6,790 bases of DNA. Origin: a virus (taxonomy: Duplodnaviria; Heunggongvirae; Uroviricota; Caudoviricetes). Positions 1,002 through 6,790 of the stretch are shown one piece after another (the first letter of the stretch is position 1; each line of letters opens with the position of its first letter). Under the pieces are notes generated by a model. It did no database searches, was not told the DNA's origin, and saw only the letters and a program-made list of their open reading frames with translations. Made by a program: the position numbers and the translations under genes. The DNA lies in the IMG/VR virus record IMGVR_UViG_3300015179_000038; one strand, given 5' to 3'.

Positions 1002-1214
1002 TTATTTCGCATAATCGCCCCCGCGTAGCTGGTCTGCACTAACACCCGATTTAGTGAGCATTTCAGAAAATCCCGCAAGAGTGCTGATAAATTCGTTTTC
1101 CATTAAACGGCACTGACATTTAACCCGGCCTTTTTCCAGATACACCAGTACGCGCCCCGTATAATCTGACGGCACATTCAGCACTACAGGTAAGTGCGAT
1201 TCATGATTATGCAT
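1002..1214 (-). CDS. Hypothetical small protein C (70 aa), paralog of D
   Basis: Track ORF. ATG 1214-1212 preceded by GGGGGTGAG SD inside the 3' end of D; overlaps the D stop by 8 nt. Gap-free alignment with D from residue 19 gives about 13/40 identities (TG-LV--KGRV-C--L). Confidence 0.6.
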   Translation of the reverse strand: MHNHESHLPVVLNVPSDYTGRVLVYLEKGRVKCQCRLMENEFISTLAGFSEMLTKSGVSADQLRGGDYAK

Positions 1215-1416
1215 GTCTCACCCCCTGAATATTCGCATTAATCATTCCGGCACGTTCTGCGAGTTCCTGTAATGATTCCCTTGTTGCGACAATGGCTTCA
1301 TCTGGCAGGTGGTAATTACACACCACGCGACCTTTATCCACATTGACCAGTAGCTGCCCGGTAAATTTCTCACGAAACTGAACGCGGTTAAGGTCGGTAA
1401 GTGACAGGTTAATCAT
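1207..1416 (-). CDS. Hypothetical small protein D (69 aa), paralog of C
   Basis: Track ORF. ATG 1416-1414 preceded by AGGGGGAA SD; start overlaps the TAA stop of E (ATGATTAA). Shares the TGxxLV..KGRVxC core with C. Confidence 0.65.
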   Translation of the reverse strand: MINLSLTDLNRVQFREKFTGQLLVNVDKGRVVCNYHLPDEAIVATRESLQELAERAGMINANIQGVRHA

Positions 1417-1612
1417 GGTGTTCCCCCTGGCGAATACGGGCAGCGAATACCATCACGCAGCCATCAGGAGATTGCTGACGCGCTTCCTGTTCGCTGGTAG
1501 CCTCAATGGTAATCACGCGCGGTTGTGCCGTGCTCAGGGCGATAAAACGCCAGATGTATTTATTCAGGTTGTACGAGTCCCGCCCTTGCGGGTGTCTGGT
1601 ATAATTTCTCAT
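1409..1612 (-). CDS. Hypothetical small protein E (67 aa), first gene of the minus-strand operon
   Basis: In-frame ATG at 1612-1610 inside the 373-aa track ORF, preceded by GAGGT SD at 5-nt spacing. Translation MRNYTRHPQGRDSYNLNKYIWRFIALSTAQPRVITIEATSEQEARQQSPDGCVMVFAARIRQGEHHD looks protein-like, unlike the Cys/Arg/Ser-rich upstream part of that ORF. Confidence 0.5.
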   Translation of the reverse strand: MRNYTRHPQGRDSYNLNKYIWRFIALSTAQPRVITIEATSEQEARQQSPDGCVMVFAARIRQGEHHD

Positions 1613-1708
1613 AGCTACCTCGATACGCTTTCTATCGTTGGTGGTTAGAAGCCCGGTTAGTGTTAGCGCACTGCCGGGTTTCGTCGTTTCTGCACCTTGC
1701 ATCAGTAA

Positions 1709-1763
1709 GGTGTTGAACACCAATTTAAGCTCTGGTGTTAAACACGTCAAGTGTTGAACACTT
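1709..1763. promoter_or_regulatory. Divergent promoter region with three palindromic operator-like sites GTGTT(G/A)AACAC
   Basis: Sites at 1709-1721 (GGTGTTGAACACC), 1734-1745 (GGTGTTAAACAC) and 1749-1763 (AAGTGTTGAACACTT). Candidate + promoter: -35 TTGAAC 1754-1759, -10 CATACT 1777-1782, leading to the ORF at 1812. Candidate - promoter: -35 TTGACG at 1750..1745, -10 TTAAAT at 1728..1723, leading to gene E. The palindromes overlap both. Confidence 0.5.
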
Positions 1764-1811
1764 ATTTTTTTTCCTGCATACTGCATTTGTTTTTTGTAAG
1801 GGGTACACAAC

Positions 1812-1991
1812 ATGGCAACAAAAGCAGTAAACGCAAAATCACAAACAGTTGCGGCAAGGGTTCCGCATGAAGTTATGAACAATGTTGAGGCGGTAAAAAT
1901 GCCTGGTGAAAGTACAGGGCAGTTTGTAACAGCAGCATTAAAGCGAGAAGTTGAATACCGCCAGCGTCGCAAGGCCAAAGAGCAGGAATAA
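1812..1991 (+). CDS. Small ribbon-helix-helix (Arc/CopG-like) DNA-binding protein candidate, 59 aa
   Basis: Not in the supplied track (too short). ATG 1812 with AAGGGG SD 8 nt upstream; TAA at 1989-1991. MATKAVNAKSQTVAARVPHEVMNNVEAVKMPGESTGQFVTAALKREVEYRQRRKAKEQE fits a beta-strand/helix/G-x-S/helix RHH pattern (compare P22 Arc) by eye. Confidence 0.5.
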   Translation: MATKAVNAKSQTVAARVPHEVMNNVEAVKMPGESTGQFVTAALKREVEYRQRRKAKEQE

Positions 1992-2048
1992 CCATCACCA
2001 GCGCCGTGGTGTAAGGTATTACGGCGCATTGCTATGCAGGACAACACA

Positions 2049-2222
2049 ATGACCGATAAAGAATTGACCAAAACATTATCACCGACACGGAAAAGACGGC
2101 GCAGAAAGATAGAGCATGAATCAGAAAGATTCGCGCCATGTGCTTTTGCCCTTGAGCAATTCCTTAAAGAGTACAGGGAAAAGCGCTCATTGCAGGTATG
2201 GCAACGAACTGAACCAGACTGA
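2049..2222 (+). CDS. Hypothetical small basic protein (57 aa from second ATG; track calls 2034)
   Basis: Track ORF 2034-2222. ATG at 2049 has AGGA about 7 nt upstream; ATG at 2034 has none. Highly basic (RKRRRRK); followed by an intrinsic terminator. Weak support. Confidence 0.3.
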   Translation: MTDKELTKTLSPTRKRRRRKIEHESERFAPCAFALEQFLKEYREKRSLQVWQRTEPD

Positions 2223-2288
2223 TTGCATTGCCCACCAGCCGCAAATGTGGCATTGTTGGTGATGCTTTTGTTTTCCCTTGTTCCCACT

Positions 2289-2318
2289 GGCGACCCTTTT
2301 GCGGTCGCCTTTGTTTTG
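2289..2318 (+). terminator. Rho-independent terminator (stem GGCGACC/GGTCGCC, loop CTTTTGC, T-tract)
   Basis: Perfect 7-bp GC-rich stem 2289-2295/2303-2309 followed by TTTGTTTTG. Downstream of the + strand small ORFs. Confidence 0.6.
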
Positions 2319-2413
2319 CTTGTTATCCGGCAATAGTGGCGCTTCACCACACGGTTGATATAATTCCCCTGCACTGATCCATTTTTTTCGCAGCAGGTTA
2401 ATTGTTCAGAAAG

Positions 2414-2441
2414 GCGGTTCCTTATCGGGGCCGCTTTTTTT
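2414..2441 (+). terminator. Rho-independent terminator (8-bp stem with 2 G-U pairs, then TTTTTTT)
   Basis: GCGGTTCC 2414-2421, loop TTATC, GGGGCCGC 2427-2434, T7 run 2435-2441. No T-run on the opposite strand. Confidence 0.6.
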
Positions 2442-2582
2442 ATGCCTGAAAATACCCGATAACATGGCTTTTTAGTTTCACCAGGACGAACGAAGCCCCG
2501 CCCCTGTTCGGGCGTATATCCAGTATTCATGGTTAGATCTCTGTGTTAGTGGATGGGTGGCGGCGGTGCGCCGCCAGCCTGA

Positions 2583-2771
2583 TTAGTGAACTGCCTCGCG
2601 GCTGTCCTTCCATGCCAGAACTTCGGATAAAGACCAGCCAACGGAACGACCGCCGAGTTTACGCCGTGATGGGAATTGTCCGGTCTTCTCCAGGCGATAC
2701 CGACATGAGCGGCTCAGGCCTGTAAGTTGCTGACATTCTTTTTCACGTATAAAGCGATCTGTGCTTAACAC
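2583..2771 (-). CDS. alpA: AlpA/Vis-family phage transcriptional regulator / excisionase-like protein (62 aa)
   Basis: Track ORF; GTG start at 2771 with AAAGGGGG SD. FIREKECQQLTGLSRSCRYRLEKTGQFPSRRKLGGRSVGWSLSEVLAWK matches the AlpA (Phage_AlpA, MerR-like HTH) pattern L-G-S-R-STIYR-GxFP-K-G-R-W-E-W. Same strand as and downstream of int, as in CP4-57 and PICI-type elements. Confidence 0.85.
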   Translation of the reverse strand: MLSTDRFIREKECQQLTGLSRSCRYRLEKTGQFPSRRKLGGRSVGWSLSEVLAWKDSREAVH

Positions 2772-2963: not shown

Positions 2964-3054
2964 CTCACGCGTTAAAGCGTTATTCGCTAATGTATAAAAA
3001 ACCAGTCATACAAATAAAATCAGTCACTTATAAACCTGTGTACTTTTTCGCCTC

Positions 3055-3104
3055 TTGTTCGTGGTTGTTCCACGTTGTTTCACATTGTTCGCCGTTGTAT
3101 CTGT
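3055..3104. repeat. Five phased 10-bp direct repeats, consensus TTGTTC-NNNN (iteron-like)
   Basis: TTGTTCGTGG, TTGTTCCACG, TTGTTTCACA, TTGTTCGCCG, TTGTATCTGT at exactly 10-bp register, 43 bp 3' of the int stop. Confidence 0.6.
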
Positions 3105-3146
3105 GTGCTTATCCAGTATGCGCATACTGAAAAAACACGAAAAAAA

Positions 3147-4394
3147 TTATTTTCTTCTGGCTGCTGGTAGTGCGGTTACGTTTTCATGTGCTCCCGCCAG
3201 TATCCCTAACCGCTCCGTCCACATATCCAGCGCATTGCGTTTCGCATCCAGATAACGGGAGTGATTATAGACTCGTTGCATCCCTGGCATCTGGTGTCCT
3301 GTAAGCTGCTCCACGACATGCGGATCAACGCCTAAATCGTTCAGCATGGTTGTAAAGGTGCGCCGGATGTCATGCAGTGACCAGTGGGGGTGATTAAGCC
3401 TCCTGTGCGCTAATCTTCCATACTGCGATACGCTGGCCTCCTGTTTCACTTCCCCCAGCAATAAGCCCGTGTGCCTGTTCTGCTCCACCAGCTGCGTGAT
3501 GAACGGCAGTATTGCTTCCGGTATAGGCCGGAATATGGCTACCTTCGTTTTGCTGTGCTCCTTCGGAACGGTCCAGAGCATTTCGGTAAAATCCCACTCG
3601 CCGATCTCCGATAACCTAAGTTCGACCGTCCGGCATCCGAACACAATCAGGAGGCGGATTAGCGCGATGTAGTAGGGGGAAAATATTTTTTTGTCCAGTG
3701 CCTGCAATAATTCGCCCAGCTCTTTATTGCTTAAGACTCGTTCGCTTATATCCGGTTTTTTCCCAACGTCCGCTACGTTCAGATCATCGAGAACGTTACT
3801 GATTGCATAGCGCCGCCTCCGGCAGTACTTAAGCGCCTGTTTGCATGTCTGTAGCACGAATCCGGCAGTAACAGGTGTTCGCTTTGCCACCTGGTCAAAG
3901 CAGGCCAGCCAGTGCCGTAGCTCGCATTTATCCAGCGGCATAGCACCAATTTTGGTGATTATGTTTTTATTGATCCGGCTTTTCAGTGATTCGTAATCTG
4001 TGCGCTTTTCCTTTGCGTACGACTCAAGCCAATAGGTGAGCGCATCGCCAACCGTTACAGGCTTTAACGCTTCCTGCATGGTGTAATTCAGTTCATAGCG
4101 TGGATTTTTCCCCTCAGCCAGCCATGCGCGACACTGGGCGGCTTTTTCCCTGGCTGCTTTCAGACTCAGATCGGGATAATTTCCCAGCTTAACGCGTTCA
4201 GGTTGTGTCCCTCTTCCCATTCCGGCCCTGTATGTGAAATACCAGGTTAAAAGGCCGCTGGTTGAATGCCTGACGCTCAGGTTTCCACCGTCATTAAGAA
4301 AGGCTGTTTTTTGGACGGGTGTGCCGTTGATTTTCCTTAGTTGTGTGTCACTCAGTTTGTTAAGTGCTCTGCTCATAATTTTGATTCCGGTCAT
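3147..4394 (-). CDS. int: P4-family tyrosine integrase (site-specific recombinase)
   Basis: Track ORF 3147-4397 (GTG); ATG at 4394 or 4376 (MSRALNKLSD) is more likely. N-terminus LSDTQLRK...FLNDGGNLSV...WYFTYR fits the P4-type arm-binding domain; C-terminus has the box II HDIRRT ... LTGH ... RVYNHSRY tyrosine-recombinase motif with the catalytic Arg region GCRTVELRL. Confidence 0.9.
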   Translation of the reverse strand: MTGIKIMSRALNKLSDTQLRKINGTPVQKTAFLNDGGNLSVRHSTSGLLTWYFTYRAGMGRGTQPERVKLGNYPDLSLKAAREKAAQCRAWLAEGKNPRYELNYTMQEALKPVTVGDALTYWLESYAKEKRTDYESLKSRINKNIITKIGAMPLDKCELRHWLACFDQVAKRTPVTAGFVLQTCKQALKYCRRRRYAISNVLDDLNVADVGKKPDISERVLSNKELGELLQALDKKIFSPYYIALIRLLIVFGCRTVELRLSEIGEWDFTEMLWTVPKEHSKTKVAIFRPIPEAILPFITQLVEQNRHTGLLLGEVKQEASVSQYGRLAHRRLNHPHWSLHDIRRTFTTMLNDLGVDPHVVEQLTGHQMPGMQRVYNHSRYLDAKRNALDMWTERLGILAGAHENVTALPAARRK

Positions 4395-4398
4395 CACA

Positions 4399-4527
4399 AT
4401 TAACTACACCATTAACTACACCGATCGTTGCACAAAGGGCTACAACGTGAAACAAGCTGAAACAAGGAAAATTAAAAATCCGTTGAAAATCAAAAACATA
4501 ACGAACAACCTGAAACATTGTGAAACA
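4399..4527. repeat. Putative att / integrase arm-site region: tandem 12-mer ATTAACTACACC x2 plus phased TGAAACA repeats
   Basis: ATTAACTACACC at 4399-4410 and 4411-4422. TGAAACA at 4448, 4458, 4511 and 4521 (two pairs at 10-bp spacing), with degenerate copies at 4484 and 4502. Lies between the int 5' end and the allE start. Confidence 0.5.
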
Positions 4528-4548
4528 GTAAAAAACACTATTTGATAA

Positions 4549-5334
4549 AAGGGATATTTAAATAACGTCACCGGTTACCGCGATGATTTACTGGCTAACC
4601 GTGCGATTGTTAAACACGGTAATTTCGCACTGTTAACACCAGACGGTCTGGTAAAAAATATTATTCCGGGCTTTGAAAATTGTGACGCGACAATCCTCTC
4701 CACGCCAAAGCTGGGTGCCTCTTTTGTTGATTATCTGGTCACACTGCATCAAAACGGTGGCAACCAACAGGGCTTCGGTGGCGAAGGCATTGAAACGTTC
4801 CTGTATGTGATCTCTGGAAATATCACTGCCAAAGCCGAAGGCAAAACATTTGCCTTAAGCGAAGGTGGCTATCTTTATTGCCCGCCAGGCTCCTTAATGA
4901 CGTTTGTTAACGCCCATGCCGAAGACAGCCAAATCTTTTTATATAAGCGCCGCTATGTTCCAATAGAAGGCCATGCACCGTGGCTGGTTTCTGGCAATGC
5001 CAGCGAACTGGAACGCATTCATTATGAAGGCATGGACGATGTTATTCTGCTGGATTTTCTGCCCAAAGAGTTAGGTTTTGATATGAACATGCATATCCTC
5101 TCTTTTGCACCAGGTGCCAGCCACGGTTATATCGAAACACACGTTCAGGAACACGGTGCCTATATTCTTTCCGGTCAGGGGGTTTATAACCTCGACAATA
5201 ACTGGATCCCGGTGAAAAAAGGCGATTACATCTTTATGGGCGCTTATTCTTTACAGGCTGGTTATGGTGTAGGGCGTGGTGAAGCGTTCAGCTATATTTA
5301 CTCGAAAGATTGTAACCGCGACGTAGAGATTTAA
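4549..5334 (+). CDS. allE: (S)-ureidoglycine aminohydrolase (cupin; YlbA/AllE); frame lacks a canonical start codon here
   Basis: The track ORF starts at GTG 4807, but the frame is open and protein-like from 4549 (KGYLNNVTGYREDLLANRAIVKHGNFALL...), giving 261 codons to TAA 5332-5334, which matches the length I recall for E. coli AllE. Codon 4549-4551 is AAG, preceded by TGA TAA. Confidence 0.75.
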   Translation, partial: KGYLNNVTGYRDDLLANRAIVKHGNFALLTPDGLVKNIIPGFENCDATILSTPKLGASFVDYLVTLHQNGGNQQGFGGEGIETFLYVISGNITAKAEGKTFALSEGGYLYCPPGSLMTFVNAHAEDSQIFLYKRRYVPIEGHAPWLVSGNASELERIHYEGMDDVILLDFLPKELGFDMNMHILSFAPGASHGYIETHVQEHGAYILSGQGVYNLDNNWIPVKKGDYIFMGAYSLQAGYGVGRGEAFSYIYSKDCNRDVEI

Positions 5335-5376
5335 GTCATACCACTCGCCTGATTATTTTTAGCTATGTTGGATTTT

Positions 5377-5403
5377 GCCACGGTTTATACCGTGGCTTTT
5401 TTT
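5377..5403 (+). terminator. Rho-independent terminator of allE
   Basis: Stem GCCACGG/CCGTGGC with loop TTTATA followed by TTTTTTT (5397-5403), 43 nt after the allE stop. Confidence 0.7.
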
Positions 5404-5410
5404 GTAACAT

Positions 5411-5516
5411 TGCCTGATGCGCTTCGCTTATCAGGCCTACATGATCTCTGCAATATATAGAATTTGCGCGATTTTCAGGAAGGATATGGTACTCATGCCG
5501 CATCCGGCATGAGTAC
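5411..5516. repeat. REP-like palindromic units in the allE-glxK convergent intergenic region
   Basis: GCCTGATGCG...CTTATCAGGCCTAC (5412-5440) is the classical REP signature. A second perfect 12-bp-stem hairpin GTACTCATGCCG-CATC-CGGCATGAGTAC (5489-5516) contains a REP-like GCCGCATCCGGC core; a small GCGAT-ATAA-ATCGC hairpin follows at 5528-5541. Confidence 0.6.
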
Positions 5517-6758: not shown

Positions 6759-6790
6759 AGATCGGAAGAGCACACGTCTGAACTCCAGTC
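6759..6790. other. Illumina TruSeq adapter sequence (technical artefact at contig end)
   Basis: AGATCGGAAGAGCACACGTCTGAACTCCAGTC is the standard TruSeq read-1 3' adapter. Genomic sequence ends at 6758. Confidence 0.95.

What the first reader, a model, noticed from the sequence alone, without database searches (positions are those of the whole stretch)
1812..1991. Unannotated 59-aa RHH-like ORF with strong SD, absent from the ORF track
A short ORF with an AAGGGG SD and Arc/CopG-like sequence pattern sits immediately downstream of the operator cluster. It is the most plausible repressor of the switch but would be missed by length-filtered gene callers. The long antisense track ORF (1409-2530) overlaps it and could be mis-annotated in its place.
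Basis: partly seen in the sequence, partly recalled or inferred. Interest (0 to 1): 0.45.

Follow-up and report, generated by a model that had tools for sequence, protein, structure and literature searches.

The report
Small repressor gene of a phage satellite
The 59-codon reading frame is a real, conserved gene for a tiny ribbon-helix-helix DNA-binding protein that most likely keeps a capsid-forming phage satellite of E. coli silent by sitting on three matching 11-bp sites over its main promoter; this class of satellites was thought to have no known repressor.

Summary
The ORF at 1812-1991 (+) with its AAGGGG Shine-Dalgarno is real. It is already annotated in RefSeq as "YlcI/YnfO family protein" (WP_000201462.1), so it was only missing from a track cut at 60 aa. 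It is under strong purifying selection. Its predicted fold matches ribbon-helix-helix (RHH) repressors such as AmrZ, Arc, omega and CopG. It lies in the regulatory region of a ~15-kb capsid-forming PICI inserted between allC and allE.

Upstream are three 11-bp palindromes (GTGTTRAACAC). They overlap a leftward promoter for the Icd-like/primase/packaging operon and the gene's own promoter.

In about 38 related loci from many genera, the operator sequence changes in step with the protein's beta-strand residues, above all residue 14. It does not change with AlpA, Icd or integrase. Six blind predictions were confirmed exactly and a seventh matched 10 of 11 bases.

Two further features surfaced. 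A conserved SymR-like antisense RNA (1613-1691) covers the Icd-like ribosome-binding site. The long antisense ORF (1409-2530) is kept open across loci, like P4 eta/kil.

The parts
1812..1991 (+). 59-aa gene of the YlcI/YnfO family. It is a predicted ribbon-helix-helix DNA-binding protein and the candidate operator-binding repressor.
1798..1803 (+). Shine-Dalgarno AAGGGG, 8 nt upstream of the ATG.
   Evidence: Read directly from the sequence.
1754..1782 (+). Predicted promoter P_R of the RHH gene: TTGAAC (1754-1759), 17-nt spacer, CATACT (1777-1782). The -35 lies inside operator O3.
   Evidence: Read from the sequence. A (T/C)ATACT -10 sits at the same distance in nearly all related loci. It falls below the scan threshold at 8 of 12 matches.
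1710..1720 (.). Operator O1, GTGTTGAACAC. It starts 1 nt downstream of the P_L -10 and covers the expected start site.
1735..1745 (.). Operator O2, GTGTTAAACAC. It lies in the spacer of P_L, abutting the -35.
1751..1761 (.). Operator O3, GTGTTGAACAC. It overlaps the -35 of P_R. In most other operator classes the third site instead sits at -32, overlapping the -10 and start of P_R.
1722..1750 (-). Predicted promoter P_L of the Icd-like/primase/packaging operon: TTGACG (1750-1745), 17-nt spacer, TAAATT (1727-1722).
   Evidence: Promoter scan. The TTGACG -35 and the O2-in-spacer / O1-at-start layout recur across loci.
1597..1691 (+). SymR-like cis-antisense small RNA. Extended -10 TGgTATAAT at 1597-1605, RNA from about 1613 to 1691, with a 5' stem-loop complementary to the Icd-like SD/start region and a terminator hairpin (1648-1682) followed by a U-rich tail.
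   Evidence: Rfam symR 32.8 bits, below the gathering score of 61. Alifold gives -28.5 kcal/mol on the + strand and -6.8 on the - strand; 16 of 24 pairs show compensatory changes and there are many G-U pairs. MFE is -35.1 kcal/mol, z = -5.2.
1409..1612 (-). Icd-like (host cell division inhibitor-like) gene, 67 aa. It is the first gene of the leftward operon and the nested short form of the long frame.
   Evidence: NCBIfam NF033153, 70.4 bits. phrog_6196. PGAP annotation.
1409..2530 (-). Long open frame of 373 codons, in frame with Icd-like. It runs through the promoters, the operators, the antisense RNA and the RHH gene (in antisense). Probably an eta-like read-through frame rather than a conventional protein gene.
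   Evidence: The frame in phase with the leftward gene has no stop across the intergenic region in 14 of 24 loci, against 0 of 24 and 3 of 24 for the other two frames. No Pfam match. P4 eta/kil as described in PMC10111431.
2034..2222 (+). 62-aa ORF downstream of the RHH gene, in the same + frame. Possibly co-transcribed. Not conserved next to the RHH gene in other loci.
   Evidence: phrog_21027, E 1.5e-15. Absent from L003 and others. Not called by PGAP.
2289..2319 (+). Intrinsic terminator of the rightward unit: GGCGACC...GGTCGCC followed by TTTGTTTTGC.
   Evidence: Terminator scan. The same element marks the start of the long minus-strand frame in several loci, where it reads as the 'KTKA' motif.
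2583..2771 (-). alpA (AlpA/Vis-family HTH). In Gram-negative PICIs this is the activator whose expression helper phages induce.
   Evidence: Pfam PF05930, 66 bits. PMC6092414.
3147..4397 (-). Tyrosine integrase of the island. PGAP places the start at the equivalent of 4376.
   Evidence: Pfam Arm-DNA-bind_3 and Phage_integrase..

Best explanation
The 59-aa ORF encodes a ribbon-helix-helix (RHH) DNA-binding protein of the YlcI/YnfO family. It is the operator-binding repressor of the regulatory switch of a capsid-forming phage-inducible chromosomal island (cf-PICI).

Proposed action: dimers insert their paired N-terminal beta-strands (residues about 11-17) into the major groove of three 11-bp sites of the form xTG-N5-CAx.
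- O2 lies in the spacer of the leftward promoter P_L and O1 lies at its start site. Occupancy should therefore shut off the Icd-like, primase, SSB/ProQ, capsid and terminase operon.
- O3 overlaps the protein's own promoter P_R, which would give negative autoregulation.
- A cis-antisense RNA (1613-1691) adds a second lock on translation of the Icd-like gene.

Shown here: the gene is real and under purifying selection; the predicted fold is RHH; the sites overlap consensus-type promoters; operator sequence and beta-strand residues co-vary, and predictions from this rule hold.

Inferred: actual DNA binding; the sign of regulation (repression); and the way induction overrides it. The likely override is AlpA-driven leftward transcription. 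That transcript would be translated through the long eta-like frame, would cross the RHH gene in antisense, and would enter the operon.
For: Gene reality:
- dN = 0 with dS 0.38 and 0.47 against two relatives; median dN/dS 0.15.
- 74 homologues in Enterobacterales.
- Annotated by PGAP.

Fold:
- AF2 pLDDT 85.1, with an extended segment at 12-18 and helices at 19-28 and 35-58.
- G32-E33-S34 and R16 are invariant.
- hhalign puts T12/A14/R16 on Arc Q9/N11/R13 and G-E-S on CopG G-L-S.
- Distant relatives hit RHH_1, PSK_trans_fac, HicB_lk_antitox and TacA1.

Operators:
- Three sites are present against 0.21 hits expected by chance.
- They sit at conserved positions, about -102, -77 and -32 or -61 from the ATG, and almost nowhere else in 3-19 kb of flank.

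Co-variation:
- Each operator core corresponds to one beta-strand signature across 12 operator classes.
- Same operators with AlpA only 25-34% identical: window against L003 and L004, L010 against L026, L023 against L025.
- Different operators with AlpA 94-98% identical: L028 against L013-L020.
- L003 shares only the asRNA-operator-RHH cassette with the window. L038 differs from the window only in the operators plus codons 1-33.
- Mutual information with operator class peaks at residue 14, at 2.64 of 2.94 bits, followed by residues 5, 12, 4 and 13.

Blind predictions:
- P0044, P0056, P0033, P0021 and P0059 were exact.
- P0032 matched 10 of 11 bases.
Against: - There is no experimental evidence of binding, repression or even translation.
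- The window protein itself hits no Pfam RHH model. A profile search found nothing in PDB sequences. Foldseek found nothing. hhalign probabilities against single RHH sequences are low.
- The model is a monomer, so DSSP does not assign the strand.
- Operators and the 5' half of the gene are physically adjacent, so some of the correlation could be linkage. Against this, the equally adjacent antisense-RNA segment does not co-vary.
- P_R is a weak consensus match, at 8 of 12.
- The published PICI work finds that AlpA alone induces islands and reports no repressor.
Confidence: 0.75

Rival explanations
1. The protein binds the three sites but is not a repressor of the leftward operon. It could be an activator, a recombination-directionality or architectural factor, or a marker of an origin or packaging site.
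For: Binding-site co-variation says nothing about the sign of regulation. Some RHH proteins, such as Mnt at P_mnt or AmrZ, activate as well as repress (own knowledge). K-12 YlcI sits just upstream of the terminase gene nohD, not at a switch.
Against: O2 lies in the spacer and O1 at the start site of a near-consensus promoter, TTGACG-17-TAAATT. This layout is conserved across operator classes. That geometry occludes RNA polymerase. The sites are not in the replication or packaging regions.
Confidence: 0.1
2. The palindromes are bound by another factor, such as AlpA, the Icd-like protein, or a host or helper-phage protein. The 59-aa protein would then have an unrelated role.
For: AlpA is the only experimentally established regulator of Gram-negative PICIs. 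PHROG labels the Icd-like family 'transcriptional repressor'.
Against: Operator class is uncoupled from AlpA: identical operators occur with AlpA 26% identical, and different operators with AlpA 98% identical. It is also uncoupled from Icd, which is 48% identical or undetectable with the same operators, and from integrase and primase. A host or helper factor would not explain concerted change of all three sites together with the adjacent beta-strand. The Salmonella locus L036 has neither an AlpA nor an Icd gene nearby yet keeps the predicted operators.
Confidence: 0.06
3. It is the RHH antitoxin of a type II toxin-antitoxin pair, with the downstream 62-aa ORF as the toxin. It would autoregulate through the palindromes.
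Against: The downstream ORF is not conserved with the RHH gene. Across loci it is of 75, 108, 69, 126 or 248 aa, or absent. In Xenorhabdus, alpA follows within about 250 nt. The protein has no C-terminal toxin-binding extension, only a basic helix end. Two of the three operators serve the divergent promoter rather than the gene's own.
Confidence: 0.03
4. The real gene here is the long minus-strand ORF (1409-2530), and the 59-aa ORF is its shadow.
For: The minus-strand frame is open across the ORF in all loci and across the intergenic region in 14 of 24. GenBank LR881103.1 annotates only the long ORF.
Against: The + frame shows purifying selection typical of a protein, with an invariant RHH motif, whereas the long ORF's translation is Cys/Ser/Arg-rich. 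Outside the part antisense to the RHH gene it is not alignable between loci, and it has no Pfam match. Variation by codon position fits the + frame. The two frames share third codon positions, so both can be kept. The data fit selection for openness of the minus frame, not for its sequence.
Confidence: 0.02

Closest known systems
YlcI/YnfO family (NCBIfam NF041551; K-12 YlcI is annotated as Pfam DUF3950), small proteins of E. coli cryptic prophages DLP12 and Qin
   Same: The window protein scores 59.7 bits against a cut-off of 30 over residues 9-50. It has the same size and the same R-x-P ... G-x-x-F/W pattern as K-12 YlcI.
   Different: It is only 22% identical to K-12 YlcI. K-12 ylcI lies upstream of the terminase gene nohD in a lambdoid remnant, with no comparable operator triplet. 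No function has been published for any member in the searched literature.
Phage P22 immI region: RHH repressors Mnt and Arc with the sar antisense RNA (own knowledge)
   Different: There is no significant sequence similarity (hhalign probability 4%). There is one RHH gene rather than two. The controlled operon carries the replication and packaging genes of a satellite. The operators are 11-bp xTG-N5-CAx sites in three copies.
Stl/Rpr master repressors of SaPIs and Gram-positive PICIs (PMC6092414)
   Same: Same position and logic: a gene transcribed divergently from the replication-packaging operon, next to int, that keeps the island quiescent.
   Different: Stl/Rpr are larger helix-turn-helix proteins, unrelated in sequence, and are released by binding a helper-phage protein. 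Here the fold is RHH and the release mechanism is unknown. [quoted passage not shown]
Satellite phage P4 immunity locus: vis, eta/kil nested genes, internal promoter P_LE, CI RNA (as summarised in PMC10111431)
   Same: Same gene order: alpA/vis, then a long frame with an internal promoter, then a nested in-frame short toxic product, then primase. The long frame is kept open across the promoter.
   Different: P4 uses the sense-strand CI RNA with seqA/seqC and has no protein repressor. Here Rfam C4 and isrK do not match. There is an RHH gene antisense inside the long frame plus a cis-antisense RNA. tblastn of the RHH and Icd-like proteins against 50,697 phage records returned no P4 record.
SymR, the cis-antisense RNA of symE (Rfam RF01809), as a comparator for the neighbouring RNA only
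   Same: About 77 nt, two hairpins with a similar GUGUU.GCGCAC loop, transcribed antisense to the 5' UTR and start of the gene it overlaps. The match covers model positions 1-77.
   Different: The score is 32.8 bits against a gathering score of 61. The target is an Icd-like gene, not symE.

Membership tests
YlcI/YnfO family (NCBIfam NF041551) | Score at or above the curated cut-off (30 bits) of the family HMM | tested here: met
   59.7 bits, E 2.1e-16, residues 9-50 matching model positions 1-42 of 42. PGAP uses this name in RefSeq.
Ribbon-helix-helix (Arc/MetJ/CopG) superfamily | Beta-strand, helix, helix topology in a domain of about 45 residues | tested here: met
   AF2 model with pLDDT 85: extended segment 12-18, helices 19-28 and 35-58. 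In a monomer model DSSP cannot assign the strand.
Ribbon-helix-helix (Arc/MetJ/CopG) superfamily | Structural similarity to solved RHH proteins | tested here: met
Ribbon-helix-helix (Arc/MetJ/CopG) superfamily | G-x-S/T/N turn at the N-terminus of helix B | tested here: met
   G32-E33-S34 is invariant in 35 sequences and aligns to G-L-S of CopG.
Ribbon-helix-helix (Arc/MetJ/CopG) superfamily | Significant match to an RHH sequence model | tested here: inconclusive
   The window protein has no Pfam hit at E <= 1 apart from Med10. Distant family members hit RHH_1 at 4.5e-4, PSK_trans_fac at 2.9e-4, HicB_lk_antitox and TacA1. hhalign against Arc or CopG gives E about 0.01 with low probability.
Ribbon-helix-helix (Arc/MetJ/CopG) superfamily | Obligate dimer whose paired strands bind the major groove | not testable with these tools
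   Only a monomer could be modelled. This needs AF-multimer or AF3 with DNA, or biochemistry.
Operator-binding transcriptional repressor of a mobile-element switch | Repeated cognate sites overlapping the -35, -10 or start of the controlled promoters | tested here: met
   O1 at the start site and O2 in the spacer of P_L; O3 on P_R.
Operator-binding transcriptional repressor of a mobile-element switch | Specificity-determining residues co-vary with the operator sequence | tested here: met
   12 operator classes correspond one-to-one with beta-strand signatures. Predictions were confirmed. AlpA, Icd and Int are uncoupled from operator class. Mutual information peaks at residue 14.
Operator-binding transcriptional repressor of a mobile-element switch | Demonstrated DNA binding and repression | not testable with these tools
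   Needs EMSA or footprinting and reporter assays.
Type II toxin-antitoxin RHH antitoxin | Conserved partner toxin gene immediately downstream | tested here: not met
   The downstream ORF differs between loci or is absent.
P4-type eta/kil nested reading frames (for the long antisense ORF) | Long frame downstream of vis/alpA that contains an internal promoter and an in-frame nested short gene, and is kept open | tested here: met
   Frame 1409-2530 is in phase with Icd-like. It has zero stops across the intergenic region in 14 of 24 loci, against 0 of 24 and 3 of 24 for the control frames.
P4-type eta/kil nested reading frames (for the long antisense ORF) | CI/C4-type sense immunity RNA with seqA/seqC targets | tested here: not met
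   No C4 or isrK match at E <= 1. The conserved RNA structure is on the opposite strand.
SymR (Rfam RF01809), for the neighbouring RNA | Score at or above the Rfam gathering score (61 bits) | tested here: not met
   32.8 bits, E 0.0026. The structure and strand are supported independently.
Capsid-forming PICI (cf-PICI) | Island of about 15 kb with int, alpA and primase plus its own capsid, protease, portal, connector, HNH, TerS and TerL genes and no tail genes | tested here: met
   The same island at the same allC/allE site in NZ_CM128605.1 has this gene set, as does L001. Definition taken from bioRxiv 10.1101/2022.09.08.507074. The window itself holds only the int-to-primase end.

The most novel reading that the evidence does not exclude
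The RHH gene with its operator cassette is the missing master repressor, or immunity determinant, of Gram-negative PICIs and cf-PICIs. It is built into a convergent-transcription toggle. The repressor gene lies antisense inside an eta-like read-through frame. AlpA-driven transcription, kept going by translation of that frame, would therefore run over and silence the repressor gene while entering the replication-packaging operon. A SymR-like antisense RNA would hold the toxic Icd-like product in check. The cassette (operators plus the N-terminal reading head) would be exchanged between islands as a unit that sets immunity specificity, following a simple residue-12/14 to operator-core code.
Probability: 0.3. 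Interest if true: 0.75.

Novelty: new member of a known kind. Interest (0 to 1): 0.55.

Why it matters
[quoted passage not shown] It calls the different induction strategy of Gram-positive and Gram-negative islands "a mystery" (PMC6092414). Later work treats AlpA as the master regulator.

A small, easily overlooked RHH gene could be that repressor, at least for the many islands that carry it. Its operators sit on the promoter of the replication-packaging operon and co-vary with the protein's DNA-reading residues. The region matches in 1698 of 5426 complete E. coli genomes.

The repressor question becomes directly testable by EMSA, reporter fusions and a point mutant. The natural set of 12 protein-operator pairs offers a compact recognition code for an RHH family. 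The analysis also flags real annotation errors: the gene is missing from LR881103.1, and the Icd-like CDS is over-extended in some RefSeq records.

Tried and rejected
- Pfam scan of the window protein: no RHH hit, only a sub-threshold Med10 match.
- Profile search of PDB sequences: only chance hits, E > 1.
- hhalign against single Arc and CopG sequences: correct register but low probability.
- tblastn of the protein against 50,697 phage records: no match. The family is therefore essentially absent from deposited phage genomes at this sensitivity, apart from a 36%-identical copy left unannotated in LR881103.1.
- AlpA as the operator binder: rejected, because AlpA is uncoupled from operator class.
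- Icd-like protein, integrase or primase as co-varying partners: rejected.
- Toxin-antitoxin reading: rejected, because there is no conserved partner gene.
- A fourth operator at the alpA start codon (2761-2771, one mismatch): not reproduced in any other operator class, so treated as chance.
- BRO-N identity of the long antisense ORF's N-terminal part, as the PGAP pseudogene labels suggest: no Pfam support in the window or in L002.
- C4/isrK-type immunity RNA: no Rfam hit.
- Literature searches for YlcI, YnfO, DUF3950, and RHH together with PICI: no functional study found. The library does not hold most subscription papers.
- Whether the experimentally studied islands EcCIEDL933 and EcCICFT073 carry this cassette could not be established.
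Full report
**1. Observation**

The + strand carries an ORF from ATG 1812 to the stop at 1989-1991, encoding 59 aa: MATKAVNAKSQTVAARVPHEVMNNVEAVKMPGESTGQFVTAALKREVEYRQRRKAKEQE. AAGGGG lies at 1798-1803, 8 nt before the ATG.

Three 11-bp palindromes lie just upstream: GTGTTGAACAC at 1710-1720, GTGTTAAACAC at 1735-1745 and GTGTTGAACAC at 1751-1761. With up to one mismatch the pattern gives 8 hits in the window against 0.21 expected, and none of 200 shuffles reaches 8. A minus-strand ORF of 373 codons (1409-2530) overlaps the gene. The description is correct.

**2. It is a gene, and it is already annotated**

- Against two close relatives, L002 and L003, all 11 and all 13 nucleotide differences in the first 53 codons are synonymous (dN 0; dS 0.38 and 0.47).
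- Over 23 loci the median pairwise dN/dS is 0.15.
- Differences from the window fall 408/207/598 on codon positions 1/2/3.
- NCBIfam NF041551, 'YlcI/YnfO family protein', matches at 59.7 bits against a cut-off of 30. phrog_949 matches at E 4.7e-22.
- PGAP annotates the gene in RefSeq E. coli as WP_000201462.1.
- The exact sequence occurs on at least 1000 public contigs.
- The region 1400-2800 matches in 1698 of 5426 complete E. coli genomes.

'Unannotated' therefore reflects only a 60-aa cut-off. No function is reported for the family in the literature I could search. One recent survey simply lists it as a 'prophage-associated protein' of cf-PICIs.

**3. Fold**

An alignment of 35 homologues has these invariant residues: M1, A2, T3, N7, K9, S10, R16, G32, E33, S34, Q37 and F38. 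AlphaFold2 gives pLDDT 85.1, with an extended segment at 12-18 and helices at 19-28 and 35-58.

- G32-E33-S34 is the RHH G-x-S/T/N turn.
- hhalign places it on G-L-S of CopG and places T12/A14/R16 on Q9/N11/R13 of Arc. That Q9, N11 and R13 are Arc's base-contacting residues is from my own knowledge.
- Direct sequence evidence is weak: no Pfam hit, nothing in PDB sequences and nothing by Foldseek.
- Distant relatives found by an exhaustive profile search (82 clusters) do hit RHH_1, PSK_trans_fac, HicB_lk_antitox, TacA1 and DUF3950.

I regard the RHH fold as well supported.

**4. Setting**

The window is the int-proximal end of an island:
- integrase, 3147-4397 (-)
- alpA, 2583-2771 (-)
- the RHH gene (+)
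- Icd-like, 1409-1612 (-)
- four small ORFs, the last of them a DUF4222 protein
- the start of a primase

The same island at the same site, between allC and allE, in NZ_CM128605.1 continues with SSB, ProQ/FinO, major capsid protein, prohead protease, portal, connector, HNH, TerS and TerL, and has no tail genes. That is the published definition of a capsid-forming PICI.

**5. Anatomy of the switch (predicted)**

- P_L (minus strand): TTGACG at 1750-1745, a 17-nt spacer, TAAATT at 1727-1722. O2 fills the spacer next to the -35. O1 begins 1 nt after the -10 and covers the expected start site.
- P_R (plus strand): TTGAAC at 1754-1759, inside O3, a 17-nt spacer, CATACT at 1777-1782.

In related loci the sites sit at about -102 and -77 from the ATG. 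The third is usually at -32, overlapping the (T/C)ATACT -10. The window's class has it at -61 instead. The sites are essentially confined to this intergenic region within 3-19 kb of flank.

**6. Who binds the sites**

I collected about 38 loci from Escherichia, Salmonella, Klebsiella, Edwardsiella, Pectobacterium, Kosakonia, Serratia, Xenorhabdus, Proteus and others. All sites have the form xTG-N5-CAx, but the core differs between loci. All three copies in a locus change together.

Each core goes with one signature at residues 11-17 of the protein:

| Residues 11-17 | Operator |
|---|---|
| QT[VLI]AAR[VI] | GTGTTRAACAC |
| [KR]KLEARV | GTGTCAGCCAC |
| KRFDVRV | GTGTCGGACAC |
| KKIDVRV | GTGTCAGACAC |
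| QSLKSRV | GTGTGGCCCAC |
| QK[VL]Q[AT]RA | GTGGA[CG]TCCAC |
| QKIQARA | CTGGAT[GT]CCAG |
| QKMSARV | CTGGCACCCAG |
| QSVTARI | GTGTAAGACAC |
| QALRARV | GTGTAGACCAC |
| QKTSVRI | GTG[AG][CT]GGACAC |

The 12th class is a divergent Klebsiella type (L030).

Other encoded proteins do not follow the operators:
- The window and Edwardsiella L003 share identical operators and a 98-100% identical RHH protein. AlpA is 26% identical, Icd 48%, integrase 25% and primase 38%.
- L028 and L013-L020 have AlpA 94-98% identical but different operators and different beta-strands.
- Salmonella L036 has neither alpA nor an Icd-like gene nearby; its leftward gene is KilA-N. It still shows the operators predicted from its beta-strand.

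Natural chimeras sharpen this:
- L038 is 90-100% identical to the window at 1430-1699 and at 1910-1969, but only 40-70% identical at 1700-1909. That stretch holds the operators plus codons 1-33.
- L003 resembles the window only over 1580-1969.

Mutual information between alignment columns and operator class peaks at residue 14, at 2.64 of 2.94 bits. Residues 5, 12, 4 and 13 follow. These are the Arc N11- and Q9-equivalent positions and the N-terminal arm. Invariant R16 matches the invariant TG/CA bases.

Predictions made from the beta-strand before looking at the DNA were confirmed:
- Exact for P0044, P0056, P0033, P0021 and P0059.
- 10 of 11 bases for P0032.

Physical linkage alone does not explain this. 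The antisense-RNA segment on the other side of the operators does not co-vary.

**7. A second layer: a cis-antisense RNA**

Rfam gives a sub-threshold SymR match on the + strand at 1613-1685: 32.8 bits, gathering score 61, E 0.0026. A perfect extended -10 (TGgTATAAT, 1597-1605) precedes it by 7 nt. A GC-rich hairpin (1648-1682) with a U-rich tail ends it.

In 22 loci the + strand folds into a conserved two-domain structure:
- -28.5 kcal/mol on the + strand, with 24 pairs. Sixteen pairs show compensatory changes, and many are G-U.
- -6.8 kcal/mol on the minus strand.
- The window RNA folds at -35.1 kcal/mol, z = -5.2.

It is fully complementary to the Shine-Dalgarno and start region of the Icd-like gene. 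No C4 or isrK-type RNA was detected.

**8. The long antisense ORF is not just noise**

Its last 67 codons are the Icd-like gene. The rest has no Pfam match and a Cys/Ser/Arg-rich translation that does not align between loci.

Yet the minus-strand frame in phase with the leftward gene has no stop codon across the roughly 190-nt intergenic region in 14 of 24 loci. The other two frames manage 0 of 24 and 3 of 24, with mean stop counts of 1.5 against 6.0 and 3.7. It stays open across the RHH gene in every locus, with which it shares third codon positions.

This matches satellite P4 as summarised by Mageeney et al. There, a long frame (eta) follows the alpA homologue vis and contains an internal constitutive promoter and a nested short product (Kil). 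Its translation from late-promoter transcripts prevents termination. I therefore read 1409-2530 as an eta-like read-through frame. This is inference.

Annotation practice varies:
- PGAP calls the RHH gene, but sometimes extends the Icd-like CDS to 135 aa across the operators.
- GenBank LR881103.1, a 16.5-kb 'phage' that looks like a cf-PICI, annotates the 324-aa long ORF and omits the RHH gene on the other strand.

**9. Most likely mechanism**

In the quiescent island, the RHH protein would occupy O1 and O2 and block P_L, silencing the Icd-like/primase/packaging operon. It would occupy O3 to limit its own synthesis. The antisense RNA would block translation of the Icd-like product from leaky transcripts.

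Published work shows that helper phages switch on alpA and that AlpA is required for induction. I infer that AlpA-dependent leftward transcripts, translated through the long frame, cross the RHH gene in antisense and enter the operon. That would bypass the repressor and also lower its level.

- Shown: gene reality, predicted fold, site placement, co-variation.
- Inferred: binding, the sign of regulation, and the induction path.

**10. Comparison and novelty**

The gene is a member of the YlcI/YnfO family (membership test met) and of the RHH superfamily by structure. Functionally it resembles P22 Mnt/Arc with the sar RNA, and it holds the position of the Stl/Rpr repressors of Gram-positive PICIs. 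The surrounding locus resembles P4 vis-eta/kil but replaces the CI RNA with a protein repressor plus a cis-antisense RNA.

[quoted passage not shown] I found no paper assigning this role to the family. I rate the gene a new functional member of a known kind. The more novel reading, a convergent-transcription toggle with an exchangeable specificity cassette, is possible but untested.

Noticed in passing
window 1597-1691 (+): A conserved SymR-like cis-antisense small RNA. It has its own extended -10 promoter inside the first codons of the Icd-like gene and an intrinsic terminator ending about 20 nt before operator O1. It is complementary to the Icd-like SD and start region. Rfam symR scores 32.8 bits, below the gathering score.
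   Followed up: yes
window 1409-2530 (-): The frame in phase with the Icd-like gene stays free of stop codons through the whole regulatory region and the RHH gene. This holds in 14 of 24 diverse loci, against 0 and 3 of 24 for the other two frames. It suggests a P4 eta/kil-like read-through frame rather than a chance ORF.
   Followed up: partly
window 6759-6790: The last 32 bases, AGATCGGAAGAGCACACGTCTGAACTCCAGTC, are an Illumina TruSeq adapter sequence (identified from my own knowledge). The contig end is therefore a sequencing artefact, not genome.
   Followed up: no
window 4546-4600; L043 21554-22297: The island is inserted at the 5' end of allE (ylbA). By my recollection of the K-12 AllE sequence, the position of the allE ATG reads AAG (4549-4551), preceded by an in-frame TAA. 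RefSeq annotates a shortened 247-aa allE in genomes with the island. The junction occurs in 13 complete E. coli genomes.
   Followed up: partly
window 4447-4530: Four copies of TGAAACA, in two pairs, lie between the integrase start and the allE junction. They are probably integrase arm-type binding sites in attL or attR.
   Followed up: no
window 5341-5407 (-) and 5433-5475 (-): Rfam matches above gathering score in the allE-glxK intergenic region: STnc480 at 87.6 bits and ES036/CssrF at 38.1 bits.
   Followed up: no
window 1002-1214 (-) and 1207-1416 (-): Two adjacent, overlapping small genes of 70 and 69 aa are paralogues (29% identical, both phrog_340) of unknown function. They lie directly after the Icd-like gene.
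   Followed up: no
L044 (GenBank LR881103.1) 8182-9156 (+) and 8589-8789 (-): A 16.5-kb record deposited as 'Escherichia phage vB_KppS-Ant' has the gene set of a cf-PICI. It annotates the 324-aa long ORF but not the RHH gene encoded on the opposite strand inside it.
   Followed up: yes
L003 (Edwardsiella hoshinae) 3780-4180: An island with unrelated integrase, AlpA and primase carries an RHH protein identical over 58 of 59 residues, at 83-100% nucleotide identity, together with the same operators and antisense RNA. The regulatory cassette is therefore exchanged between islands and genera.
   Followed up: partly
L034 (E. coli CP028381.1) about 3000-3364: A second module sits downstream of the first. 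It has another antisense-RNA-like hairpin region followed by a different small RHH-like ORF (VSTHKNERRGNPPFQFRLDPDLREKMEK...), resembling K-12 YlcI more than the window protein.
   Followed up: no
window 2761-2771 (-): The first 11 nt of alpA (GTGTTAAGCAC) differ from operator O2 by one base. No equivalent site is found near alpA in other operator classes, so this is probably chance.
   Followed up: partly
L002 2993-3400; L043 18369-18776: RefSeq is inconsistent about the Icd-like CDS. It is 68 aa (a 207-nt CDS) in one record and 135 aa in others. The long version runs across the antisense RNA, both promoters and all three operators, up to the RHH start codon.
   Followed up: partly
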